Positions 1 through 1,593 of a stretch of 2,406 nucleotides of DNA are shown here, in pieces. The notes beneath the pieces are model-generated. The model had not been told where the DNA came from. It worked only from the letters and a program-made list of their open reading frames with translations, and did no database searches. Each line of letters starts with the position of its first letter. The stretch's first letter is position 1. The stretch lies in the IMG/VR virus record IMGVR_UViG_2695420644_000003, one strand, 5' to 3'. The position numbers and the translations under genes were made by a program. The DNA comes from a virus. Its lineage: Duplodnaviria; Heunggongvirae; Uroviricota; Caudoviricetes.

Positions 1-231
1 TTATCGACCAGCGATTTTTTCAGATCTGCAGAACACTTGGNGCCGNTNNANANGNAAATTGACCACATCAGACAGGAGGTTTAATTCACTCTGATAAATC
101 GCGATAACAGATTCAGTTATTTCGCGTTTTTCTTTATCAAGACCAAGTTGAATAAGAGACAAATCGCCATTTTTCATAACGGCGATTTTTAAGGCATTGT
201 TCAGTAAAACAACTGAACGAGAACAGGACAT
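1..231 (-). CDS. Hypothetical small protein, 76 aa from ATG at 231..229 (stop TAA at 3..1); distal gene of the leftward early operon; several codons ambiguous
   Basis: Open frame on minus strand with ATG at 231..229 preceded by GGAGG (7-nt spacer). The start overlaps the stop of the upstream ORF in the arrangement TGATG. The ORF track begins it at an in-frame TTG (234..232), which I consider less likely. Positions 41-56 contain N calls, so five residues are unknown. No recognisable domain. Confidence 0.55.
   Translation of the reverse strand: MSCSRSVVLLNNALKIAVMKNGDLSLIQLGLDKEKREITESVIAIYQSELNLLSDVVNXXXXRXQVFCRSEKIAGR
41..56. other. Patch of ambiguous base calls (N at 41, 46, 48, 49, 51, 53, 55)
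   Basis: Read directly from the sequence; interleaved N and called bases suggest low-quality base calling rather than a gap. Confidence 0.95.
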
Positions 232-1196: not shown

Positions 1197-1472
1197 TTAA
1201 CGTGGTTCACCGAGACCTAACCACATCAACCAGCCGTCACGAATCTCTTTAGGGCGGCTTTCATAAGCCAGTTTTAGTCCGTTATTCCATGCCGGAAGGT
1301 ATACCCAATATTCACCTGCACGACCTGAAGCTGATTGTGGATCGGTCATATCAATTACAGGCAGCTTTCCTTTATCGATCATCCGACGAACCGCTCCTGT
1401 CGATTTTCCTATTAGTTTTGCGAACTCCTGATAAGGAATCGCATCAGTCATGAGTGTTACTTGCTTGCTCAT
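1197..1472 (-). CDS. cox: Cox-like excisionase / lysogeny-switch regulator (91 aa)
   Basis: 91-aa minus-strand ORF with ATG 1472..1470 preceded by GGAGG (5-nt spacer); first gene of the leftward operon, divergent from the repressor gene. Length equals P2 Cox (91 aa, from memory). The segment IPYQEFAKLIGKSTGAVRRMIDKGKLPV followed by GEYWVYLPAWNNG has the look of an excisionase-type winged-helix DNA-binding protein. Confidence 0.8.
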   Translation of the reverse strand: MSKQVTLMTDAIPYQEFAKLIGKSTGAVRRMIDKGKLPVIDMTDPQSASGRAGEYWVYLPAWNNGLKLAYESRPKEIRDGWLMWLGLGEPR

Positions 1473-1486
1473 GTCGTCCTCCAGCC

Positions 1487-1515
1487 CTCATGAATTGCGT
1501 TTAATGCCTTATAAT
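1487..1515 (+). promoter_or_regulatory. Candidate rightward repressor promoter (Pc-like): perfect -10 TATAAT at 1510-1515 with a poor -35
   Basis: TATAAT consensus on the plus strand; no good TTGACA-like hexamer at 16-18 bp upstream (best nearby is TTGCGT at 1495-1500, wrongly spaced). Predicted start near 1522, giving the repressor mRNA a leader of about 65 nt that runs through the leftward promoter. Confidence 0.35.
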
Positions 1516-1530
1516 GCCTTTTAGTGCACA
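1491..1530. promoter_or_regulatory. Four tandem 10-bp direct repeats at one-helical-turn spacing (TGAATTGCGT / TTAATGCCTT / ATAATGCCTT / TTAGTGCACA); candidate Cox-binding boxes over the rightward promoter
   Basis: Repeats read directly; the second and third are identical over 9 bp (TAATGCCTT). They overlap the TATAAT at 1510-1515. Assignment to Cox binding is inference from the known behaviour of P2 Cox (binds directly repeated boxes and represses Pc). Confidence 0.4.
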
Positions 1531-1553
1531 CATCCAAGCACTAAACAATCTAC

Positions 1554-1583
1554 ATCTAAACTAAATACTATTGAGATCTAAAC
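1554..1583. promoter_or_regulatory. Two exact 8-bp direct repeats ATCTAAAC (1554-1561 and 1576-1583), 22 bp centre to centre, flanking the -10 of the leftward promoter; candidate operator half-sites for the C-like repressor
   Basis: Repeats read directly; additional CTAAAC copy at 1541-1546. Direct-repeat operators two helical turns apart flanking the Pe -10 is what I recall for P2 C repressor; binding here is inferred. Confidence 0.5.
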
Positions 1584-1593
1584 ACCATGTCAA
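1565..1593 (-). promoter_or_regulatory. Candidate leftward early promoter (Pe-like): -35 TTGACA (plus-strand 1588-1593), 17-bp spacer, -10 TAGTAT (plus-strand 1565-1570)
   Basis: Perfect -35 consensus and optimal spacer on the minus strand; -10 keeps the most conserved positions (TA...AT). Predicted start near 1557-1559, about 85 nt upstream of cox. The -35 overlaps the repressor start codon (1587-1589). Confidence 0.55.

What the first reader, a model, noticed from the sequence alone, without database searches (positions are those of the whole stretch)
1491..1583. Two distinct direct-repeat families partition the switch region
One family is four tandem 10-bp units at helical periodicity (1491-1530, two copies identical over 9 bp) covering the rightward -10. 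The other is two exact 8-bp repeats ATCTAAAC, 22 bp centre to centre, flanking the leftward -10. Direct rather than inverted repeats are unusual for repressor operators but are what is reported for P2 C and Cox. The two families plausibly mark the binding sites of the two antagonistic regulators, one family per promoter.
Basis: partly seen in the sequence, partly recalled or inferred. Interest (0 to 1): 0.5.

Follow-up and report, generated by a model that had tools for sequence, protein, structure and literature searches.

The report
Phage P2 switch operators, already known

Summary
The window is a P2-type prophage fragment (orf81-orf80-B-orf78-cox | C-int), 98.1% identical to phage P2; cox and C have no nucleotide differences from P2. 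Both repeat families exist at the stated coordinates. The two exact ATCTAAAC copies (1554-1561, 1576-1583; 22 bp apart) flank the -10 of the leftward promoter. They are the features annotated in GenBank AF063097 as C-repressor half-sites O2 and O1 of the early promoter Pe. Published EMSA, SPR, footprint and operator-mutant work used this same sequence (GTTTAGAT on the other strand). The 10-bp family over the rightward promoter Pc reads on the minus strand as three in-phase matches to the published Cox-box consensus TTAAA(G/C)NC(A/C): 1496-1504 (8/8), 1505-1513 (6/8) and 1515-1523 (7/8). It is the only such chain in the window (0 of 300 shuffles reach its score). In related loci O1 and O2 are 100% and 97% conserved while the surrounding DNA is 41-78% identical. 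The interpretation (one family per regulator and promoter) is supported. The specificity is the known P2 immunity class. One caveat: the fourth 10-bp unit is weak and overlaps a conserved 8-bp inverted repeat in the Pe/Pc transcript overlap. That hairpin is the only item here that may not have been described.

The parts
1197..1472 (-). cox gene (91 aa): lytic-side repressor of Pc and excisionase
   Evidence: ORF. No nucleotide difference from P2 cox. Annotated in AF063097. Full-length match to PDB 4LHF and to Pfam Phage_Cox, E=5.5e-48.
1490..1515 (+). Pc promoter as annotated for P2: -35 ATGAAT at 1490-1495 and -10 TATAAT at 1510-1515; drives C and int rightward
   Evidence: AF063097 regulatory features mapped by window = locus - 145. 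Weak promoter, not called by the consensus scan.
1496..1504 (-). Cox-box 1, TTAAACGCA, 8/8 specified consensus positions
   Evidence: The only perfect match to TTAAA(G/C)NC(A/C) in the window. Consensus from PMC3936717.
1505..1513 (-). Cox-box 2, TATAAGGCA, 6/8; overlaps the Pc -10
   Evidence: Polymorphic site 1507 falls on the N position of the box: C in the window, T in P2, G in the diverged loci (+ strand).
1515..1523 (-). Cox-box 3, TAAAAGGCA, 7/8
   Evidence: Together with boxes 1 and 2 it forms the only same-strand chain of three in the window with 9-11 bp spacing; 0 of 300 shuffles reach the summed score of 21.
1502..1520 (.).
   Evidence: TRF period 10, 1.9 copies, 100%. Exact 8-mers at 1502/1512 and 1503/1513.
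1520..1545 (.). Perfect 8-bp inverted repeat TTTAGTGC / GCACTAAA with a 10-nt loop, in the ~35-nt overlap of the Pc and Pe transcripts.
   Evidence: I4. RNA fold -8.1 and -8.8 kcal/mol on the two strands. 88.9% of cells paired across 9 haplotypes against 29-47% when slid; 3 pairs with double changes.
1554..1561 (-). O2 half-site of the C-repressor operator (GTTTAGAT on the - strand)
   Evidence: Exact ATCTAAAC. AF063097 misc_feature 'O2 repressor binding site'. 97% conserved in the diverged loci.
1565..1570 (-). Pe -10 hexamer (TAGTAT on the - strand)
1576..1583 (-). O1 half-site of the C-repressor operator (GTTTAGAT on the - strand)
   Evidence: Exact ATCTAAAC. AF063097 'O1 repressor binding site'. 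Mutagenesis of this octamer abolishes repression and binding (PMC1904263). 100% conserved in the diverged loci.
1588..1593 (-). Pe -35 hexamer (TTGACA on the - strand); overlaps the C start codon
1587..1886 (+). C gene (99 aa): immunity repressor
   Evidence: ORF. No nucleotide difference from P2 C. Full-length match to PDB 2XCJ/2L49 'C protein'. Pfam HTH_3.

Best explanation
This is the lysis/lysogeny switch of a phage P2-class prophage. Two face-to-face promoters lie in the 114-bp cox-C spacer. Pe fires leftward into cox-orf78-B (lytic), and Pc fires rightward into C-int (lysogenic). Their transcripts overlap by about 35 nt.

The two exact 8-bp direct repeats ATCTAAAC (O2 at 1554-1561, O1 at 1576-1583) are the half-sites of the C operator. 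One C dimer binds each half-site. The dimers sit two helical turns apart on the same face and bind cooperatively, bending the DNA and covering the Pe -10, which shuts off the lytic operon and confers immunity.

The 10-bp-periodic family over Pc (core 1496-1523) is a head-to-tail array of Cox boxes. Cox protomers bind one per helical turn, polymerise cooperatively into a filament that wraps the DNA, and cover the Pc -35 and -10, which shuts off C and int. At high concentration Cox spreads toward Pe and so autoregulates.

Shown here: the sequences, their positions, their statistical excess, their conservation, and the identity of the proteins and DNA with P2. Taken from published experiments on the same sequence: binding, cooperativity, bending and repression. 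My inference: which individual 9-mers are the Cox boxes, and on which strand they read.
For: Identity. The window is 98.1% identical to P2 AF063097 over 56-2344. cox and C have no nucleotide differences from P2. C matches PDB 2XCJ/2L49 and Cox matches 4LHF over their full lengths.

Annotation. O1, O2, Pe -10/-35 and Pc -10/-35 of AF063097 map exactly onto 1576-1583, 1554-1561, 1565-1570/1588-1593 and 1510-1515/1490-1495.

Literature on C. The operator is 8-bp direct repeats, 22 bp centre to centre, spanning the Pe -10, with an 11 AT + 3 GC linker, which the sequence at 1562-1575 shows directly (PMC2995052). An O1 multiple mutant loses repression and EMSA binding (PMC1904263). Double point mutants reduce repression (PMC1904268).

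Literature on Cox. Consensus TTAAA(G/C)NC(A/C), 10-11 bp spacing, at least 70 bp protected, boxes overlapping the Pc -10 and -35 (PMC3936717, PMC5009727). The general rule for P2-like phages is that immunity operators lie over the lytic promoter and Apl/Cox operators over the lysogenic promoter (PMC7498355).

Statistics. The Cox-box chain 8+6+7 is unique in the window, and 0 of 300 shuffles reach it. The 4x10 block score is reached by 1 of 300 shuffles.

Conservation. In 4 diverged loci (C 84-86 of 99 aa identical), O1 is 100% and O2 97% identical, against 41-78% for flanking spacer and coding DNA. The proposed base-contacting residues of C (Y31, S35, Y36, R41) are invariant. Within the P2 class, 15 of 114 spacer columns vary but only 2 of the 44 site columns do (hypergeometric P=0.026). 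Variable columns lie right next to O2 (1553, 1562, 1563) and O1 (1585, 1586). The frequent 1507 polymorphism sits on the N position of box 2.
Against: I could not read the primary Cox footprint papers or the figure that places the boxes. The box-by-box assignment and the strand are therefore inferred.

Only three boxes reach 6/8 in phase, while the literature speaks of at least six. Spacings here are 9 and 10 bp rather than 10-11.

The consensus is loose: 78 hits of at least 6/8 in the window. A scan of the annotated attP Cox site was not discriminating on its own.

The + strand reading of the same units also gives partial matches (6, 5 and 5 of 8).

The fourth 10-bp unit is better explained as a hairpin arm.

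The window carries three spacer substitutions relative to the P2 DNA used in the experiments (1482, 1507, 1528). None lies in O1/O2 or at a specified Cox-box position.
Confidence: 0.92

Rival explanations
1. The 10-bp family is not a protein-binding array. It is a by-product of promoter sequence (the TATAAT -10 and an AT-rich spacer) or a recent local duplication, and Cox binds elsewhere or without sequence preference.
For: Only two units are near-identical, and their 9/9 identity depends on a polymorphic base. The Cox-box consensus is loose (78 hits of at least 6/8). Cox is reported to bind non-specific DNA at higher concentration.
Against: The only perfect consensus match in the window lies here, and the three-box chain is never reached in 300 shuffles. 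The literature states that the boxes overlap the Pc -10 and -35. The only variable column within 1496-1523 among 21 haplotypes is the N position of a box.
Confidence: 0.04
2. The fourth unit (1521-1530, TTAGTGCACA) does not belong to the direct-repeat family. It is the left arm of a conserved inverted repeat or hairpin (1520-1527 / 1538-1545) in the Pe/Pc transcript overlap. On this view the family has three members in this stretch.
For: A perfect 8-bp inverted repeat. The unit matches the Cox consensus at only 5/8 on the + strand, and the in-phase - strand 9-mer falls below the 5/8 listing threshold. Pairing is kept in 88.9% of cells, with compensatory changes at 3 pairs across diverged loci.
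Against: Published Cox footprints span at least 70 bp, so Cox protomers probably also occupy this stretch, specifically or by spreading. The two roles are not exclusive. The 9 haplotypes come from few independent lineages.
Confidence: 0.5
3. The repeats define a new immunity specificity distinct from P2, W-phi and 186.
For: None beyond three spacer substitutions relative to the P2 reference.
Against: The C protein and both half-sites are identical to P2. The W-phi half-site is TATTGGTGAC at 34 bp spacing, and P2 Hy dis half-sites are 26 bp apart around the -35. The same switch is present in 405 of 5426 complete E. coli genomes.
Confidence: 0.01
4. The C operator is tripartite. The partial third copy CTAAAC at 1541-1546 would be a functional third half-site through which C autoregulates Pc.
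For: CTAAACA recurs at 1541-1547 and 1578-1584. The published C footprint extends about 12 nt downstream of O2 as a fourth protected patch (PMC1904263).
Against: The copy is not conserved in the diverged loci that keep O1 and O2 intact (CGAAC, TTAAC, CAAAC, CCAAC). Within-class singleton changes occur at 1540, 1542 and 1543. The authors consider secondary binding sites very unlikely, though they wrote that about W-phi EMSA constructs.
Confidence: 0.1

Closest known systems
Phage P2 C-repressor operator O1/O2 at Pe (GenBank AF063097; PDB 2XCJ)
   Same: Identical 8-bp half-site sequence, identical 22-bp spacing, identical position around the Pe -10, identical 14-bp linker, and a C protein with identical coding sequence.
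   Different: Nothing within the operator. The window carries three substitutions elsewhere in the spacer (1482, 1507, 1528) and about 40 more in the orf81-orf78 region.
Phage P2 Cox boxes at Pc (consensus TTAAA(G/C)NC(A/C); Cox structure PDB 4LHF)
   Same: Same protein. Same promoter overlap and roughly one box per helical turn. One perfect and two near matches to the consensus on one strand.
   Different: Only three boxes are recognisable at 6/8 or better, against 'at least six' reported. Box 2 has G at its N position here and A in the P2 reference.
W-phi and P2 Hy dis switches (heteroimmune P2-like coliphages)
   Same: Convergent Pe/Pc promoters. C binds two direct repeats. Cox binds direct repeats over or near Pc.
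   Different: W-phi half-sites are 10 bp (TATTGGTGAC), 34 bp apart, and its Cox recognises a 12-nt direct repeat. P2 Hy dis half-sites are 26 bp apart and flank the -35. The repressors are only 43-63% identical to P2 C.
Coliphage 186 Apl operators between pR and pL, and lambda Xis sites
   Same: Recombination directionality factors bind head-to-tail direct repeats 10-11 bp apart with high cooperativity, DNA bending and spreading.
   Different: 186 has seven Apl sites between the promoters that repress both. Its immunity repressor CI is a different, larger protein. Lambda Xis has no switch role.

Membership tests
P2 immunity-class C operator (O1/O2) | Two directly repeated 8-bp half-sites of sequence GTTTAGAT (ATCTAAAC on the other strand) | tested here: met
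   Exact copies at 1554-1561 and 1576-1583. Sequence given in PMC1904263.
P2 immunity-class C operator (O1/O2) | Centre-to-centre distance of 22 bp (two helical turns) | tested here: met
   Starts at 1554 and 1576. The literature value is 22 bp.
P2 immunity-class C operator (O1/O2) | Half-sites flank the -10 hexamer of the early promoter Pe | tested here: met
   Pe -10 at 1565-1570 and -35 at 1588-1593 on the - strand.
P2 immunity-class C operator (O1/O2) | Adjacent cognate repressor belonging to the P2 C immunity class (at least 95% identity within a class) | tested here: met
   C coding sequence identical to P2. Full-length PDB 2XCJ/2L49 match. Class criterion from PMC3448106.
P2 immunity-class C operator (O1/O2) | Physical binding of C to the repeats and repression of Pe | not testable with these tools
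   Published for the identical operator sequence (PMC1904263, PMC1904268, PMC2995052).
P2 Cox-box array at Pc | 9-bp boxes matching TTAAA(G/C)NC(A/C) | tested here: met
   1496-1504 at 8/8, 1505-1513 at 6/8 and 1515-1523 at 7/8, all on the - strand.
P2 Cox-box array at Pc | Boxes spaced 10-11 bp start to start, in one orientation at Pc | tested here: inconclusive
   Observed spacings are 9 and 10 bp. The chain is still unique and unmatched in 300 shuffles. The alternative register for box 2 (1506-1514) gives a 10-bp spacing from box 1 but only 5/8.
P2 Cox-box array at Pc | At least six boxes within a protected region of 70 bp or more | tested here: inconclusive
   Only three in-phase boxes reach 6/8. 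The published box map (figure) and the footprint papers are not held.
P2 Cox-box array at Pc | Array overlaps the -10 and -35 of Pc | tested here: met
   Boxes span 1496-1523. Pc -35 is at 1490-1495 and -10 at 1510-1515.
P2 Cox-box array at Pc | Cognate Cox protein encoded next to the site | tested here: met
   cox identical to P2. PDB 4LHF full length. Pfam Phage_Cox E=5.5e-48.
P2-type convergent-promoter switch | Face-to-face Pe and Pc with overlapping transcripts (~35 nt) between divergently encoded cox and C | tested here: met
   Promoter positions put Pc +1 near 1522 and Pe +1 near 1558. The ~35-nt overlap was confirmed by primer extension in PMC1904263.

The most novel reading that the evidence does not exclude
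The perfect 8-bp inverted repeat at 1520-1527/1538-1545 sits exactly in the ~35-nt region transcribed from both Pe and Pc. It keeps its pairing through compensatory changes in diverged P2-class switches. It may be a functional and, as far as I could find, undescribed element of the switch. One possibility is a 5' stem-loop formed by both the Pc and the Pe transcripts that affects their stability, translation or sense/antisense interaction. Another is a palindromic DNA site for an additional factor.
Probability: 0.15. Interest if true: 0.35.

Novelty: already known. Interest (0 to 1): 0.08.

Why it matters
As a discovery it does not matter. These are well-characterised, experimentally dissected operators, and the half-sites are already annotated in the P2 GenBank record. 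The case does show that a reader working from sequence alone can recover the architecture of a non-canonical, direct-repeat genetic switch correctly.

It also yields a few small points that could be used:
- O1 and O2 are more conserved than the genes around them, even in a clade whose Cox recognition helix and Pc side have diverged.
- A common natural polymorphism (1507) falls on the unconstrained position of a Cox box.
- A conserved hairpin lies in the Pe/Pc transcript overlap.

Tried and rejected
(1) I tried to read the primary Cox and C footprint papers (Saha 1987 EMBO J, Saha 1989 PNAS, Liu 1999 J Virol, Eriksson 2000 J Bacteriol). None is held, so the published box-by-box map could not be compared.

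(2) I scanned the annotated 74-bp Cox site at P2 attP with the consensus. It has several 6-7/8 hits on both strands, in line with 'boxes facing both ways'. The consensus is too loose for this to be an independent test.

(3) I tested the 8-mer repeat against whole-window shuffles. An exact 8-mer direct repeat within 35 bp is common by chance (61% of shuffles). The allow-one-mismatch count was also unremarkable. Its significance comes from its position, its conservation and the published experiments, not from the repeat alone.

(4) I considered a third C half-site (CTAAAC at 1541-1546). I set it aside as a sequence-specific site because it is not conserved where O1 and O2 are.

(5) An Rfam scan of the whole window at E<=1 found nothing.

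(6) A new immunity class was rejected.

(7) A literature search for a described hairpin or inverted repeat in the P2 Pe/Pc overlap found nothing relevant. This is weak negative evidence, because the older P2 papers are not in the library.

Full report
WHAT THE WINDOW IS

The ORF map shows a 91-aa ORF on the minus strand (1197-1472) and a 99-aa ORF on the plus strand (1587-1886), separated by 114 bp. An integrase-like ORF follows, and a 166-aa ORF lies upstream on the minus strand.

Megablast against phage records gives 98.1% identity over 56-2344 to bacteriophage P2 (AF063097 / NC_001895) and several Peduovirus genomes. A base-by-base comparison shows about 43 substitutions relative to P2, nearly all in the orf81-orf80-B-orf78 stretch. 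There are none in cox or in C, three in the cox-C spacer (1482 C for T, 1507 C for T, 1528 A for C) and one between C and int.

The 99-aa protein matches the full length of PDB 2XCJ/2L49 ('C protein'). The 91-aa protein matches the full length of PDB 4LHF ('Regulatory protein cox') and Pfam Phage_Cox. The P2-derived part of the window is identical over 87-2344 to an IMG/VR prophage contig (L068). The switch segment occurs in 405 of 5426 complete E. coli genomes. The window is therefore an ordinary P2-immunity prophage.

CHECKING THE OBSERVATION

Both families are present where stated.

ATCTAAAC occurs exactly twice, at 1554-1561 and 1576-1583. The copies bracket the -10 (TAGTAT, 1570-1565) of a strong leftward promoter whose -35 (TTGACA, 1593-1588) overlaps the C start codon. 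An exact 8-mer direct repeat within 35 bp is not rare in 2.3 kb (61% of shuffles have at least one). It is rare in the 114-bp spacer (3.2% of shuffles).

For the other family, Tandem Repeats Finder reports a period-10 repeat, 1.9 copies at 100% identity, at 1502-1520. Even so, the 4x10 block has the highest score in the window (tied only with a 4-bp-shifted block over the same repeats), and 1 of 300 shuffles reaches it. The exact 9/9 identity of the central pair depends on the C allele at 1507. The P2 reference has T there.

WHAT THE 8-BP REPEATS ARE

The P2 GenBank record annotates 'O2 repressor binding site' and 'O1 repressor binding site', the Pe -10 and -35, and the Pc -10 and -35. With window = locus - 145 these map to 1554-1561, 1576-1583, 1565-1570, 1588-1593, 1510-1515 and 1490-1495.

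The literature describes the same arrangement. P2 C recognises two non-palindromic 8-bp direct repeats, 22 bp centre to centre, spanning the Pe -10, with an 11 AT + 3 GC linker (PMC2995052). The window's linker at 1562-1575, TAAATACTATTGAG, has that composition.

O1 is given as GTTTAGAT, the reverse complement of ATCTAAAC. Changing it to ATCCGAGT abolishes repression in vivo and binding in EMSA (PMC1904263).

WHAT THE 10-BP FAMILY IS

P2 Cox binds directional 9-bp 'cox-boxes' with consensus TTAAA(G/C)NC(A/C). [quoted passage not shown] Cox protects at least 70 bp. At Pc the boxes overlap the -10 and -35, so that a Cox filament wraps the DNA and blocks the promoter (PMC3936717, PMC5009727).

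Scoring that consensus along the window gives one perfect match in 2.4 kb: TTAAACGCA at 1496-1504 on the minus strand. It is followed on the same strand by TATAAGGCA (1505-1513, 6/8) and TAAAAGGCA (1515-1523, 7/8). A chain of three same-strand hits spaced 9-11 bp occurs in only 7.7% of shuffles, and none of 300 reaches the observed summed score.

I could not see the published figure that places the boxes, and the primary footprint papers are not held. The individual box coordinates and their strand are therefore my inference. Only three of the reported 'at least six' boxes are recognisable at this threshold.

INDEPENDENT COMPARATIVE EVIDENCE

Eighty loci encoding relatives of this C protein were fetched.

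Seventy-four of them belong to the P2 class. Together with the window and the P2 reference they give 21 distinct haplotypes of the 201-bp switch segment. Fifteen of the 114 spacer columns vary, but only two of the 44 columns assigned to O1, O2 and the three boxes do (hypergeometric P=0.026). Variable columns lie right next to the half-sites: 1553 | O2 | 1562, 1563, and O1 | 1585, 1586. The single variable column inside 1496-1523 is 1507, the N position of box 2, which is polymorphic at high frequency (43 T, 32 C).

Six loci carry a diverged pair: C 84-86 of 99 aa identical, and Cox 73 of 91 aa identical in the two loci where it could be compared position by position. In four of them, aligned to the window, O1 is 100% and O2 97% identical. 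The adjacent coding DNA is 65-78% identical, the Pc/box region 70%, and the cox-proximal spacer 41%. The residues proposed to make base contacts in C (Y31, S35, Y36, R41; PMC2995052) are invariant in these proteins. Their Cox proteins differ in the recognition helix (for example T25E, G26R, R29K, R30G, D33E in L076). This fits the greater drift of the Pc side, though that link is only an inference.

MECHANISM

The best-supported account is the established one. Pe (leftward) and Pc (rightward) face each other, and their transcripts overlap by about 35 nt (PMC1904263).

C dimers bind O1 and O2 cooperatively on one face of the helix, bend the DNA and cover the Pe -10. Cox protomers bind the head-to-tail boxes one per turn, polymerise and cover Pc.

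The partition is not absolute. Cox at high concentration spreads to Pe and autoregulates, and C at high concentration down-regulates Pc.

WHAT IS LEFT OVER

It is also the left arm of a perfect 8-bp inverted repeat, TTTAGTGC / GCACTAAA (1520-1527 / 1538-1545), that lies inside the transcript overlap.

Across nine distinct haplotypes, including the diverged clade, 88.9% of cells remain paired, against 29-47% when the partner strand is slid. Three pairs show changes on both sides. Predicted RNA stabilities are -8.1 and -8.8 kcal/mol on the two strands. Rfam has nothing here, and a text search found no description of it. The older P2 literature is not searchable, and the haplotypes represent few independent lineages. 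I therefore rate this as a modest lead and not a finding.

A partial third copy of the C half-site (CTAAAC, 1541-1546) coincides with the published extra footprint patch downstream of O2. It is not conserved where O1 and O2 are.

COMPARISON AND VERDICT

The window meets every sequence-level criterion for the P2 C operator and for the P2 immunity class. It meets most of the criteria for the P2 Cox-box array. Box number and exact spacing are inconclusive.

It differs from W-phi (10-bp half-sites 34 bp apart; 12-nt Cox repeats), from P2 Hy dis (26 bp apart, around the -35) and from 186 (seven Apl sites; a different CI repressor).

The feature is already known, so interest is low.

Noticed in passing
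window 1520-1545: A perfect 8-bp inverted repeat TTTAGTGC/GCACTAAA with a 10-nt loop sits in the ~35-nt Pe/Pc transcript overlap. Pairing is conserved, with compensatory changes in diverged P2-class loci (88.9% of cells paired against 29-47% when slid). There is no Rfam family, and I found no description of it..
   Followed up: partly
window 1-55 and 2345-2406: The window ends are not phage DNA. 1-40 is identical to E. coli sslE, and 2357-2406 is identical to an IclR-family regulator gene located more than 1 Mb away in reference genomes. Both are joined to the P2 segment through N-rich junctions (41-55 and 2346-2356). The window looks like a chimeric or scaffolded draft contig, so the ORFs listed across the ends (for example 2002-2406) are artefactual at their termini..
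   Followed up: yes
window 1541-1547: A partial third copy of the C half-site (CTAAACA, also at 1578-1584) lies 15 bp left of O2. It coincides with the published fourth C-footprint patch downstream of O2, but it is not conserved in diverged loci that keep O1 and O2..
   Followed up: partly
window 1482, 1507, 1528: Three spacer substitutions relative to the P2 reference. 1507 is a common natural polymorphism (43 T, 32 C among 75 sequences, i.e. 74 loci plus the P2 reference) that lies in the Pc spacer and on the N position of Cox-box 2. 1528 lies in the hairpin loop near Pc +6. 1482 is upstream of the Pc -35. Any effect on switch set-point is untested..
   Followed up: partly
L076-L081, about 1380-1500 (aligned to window 1473-1586): A diverged clade keeps O1, O2 and the proposed C contact residues unchanged. 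Its Cox recognition helix is altered (T25E, G26R, R29K, R30G, D33E in L076), and its Pc side is only 41-70% identical. Cox specificity may therefore have diverged within one C immunity class..
   Followed up: partly
window 1490-1515: As annotated in AF063097, Pc has only a 14-bp spacer between its -35 (ATGAAT) and -10 (TATAAT). That is unusually short for sigma-70, and the consensus promoter scan did not call it..
   Followed up: no
window 1503-1520: The central 10-bp units are also quasi-palindromic (AATGCCTTATAA / TTATAATGCCTT, 83% complementary). This is why both strands give partial Cox-box matches and why the strand assignment of the boxes is not certain from sequence alone..
   Followed up: no
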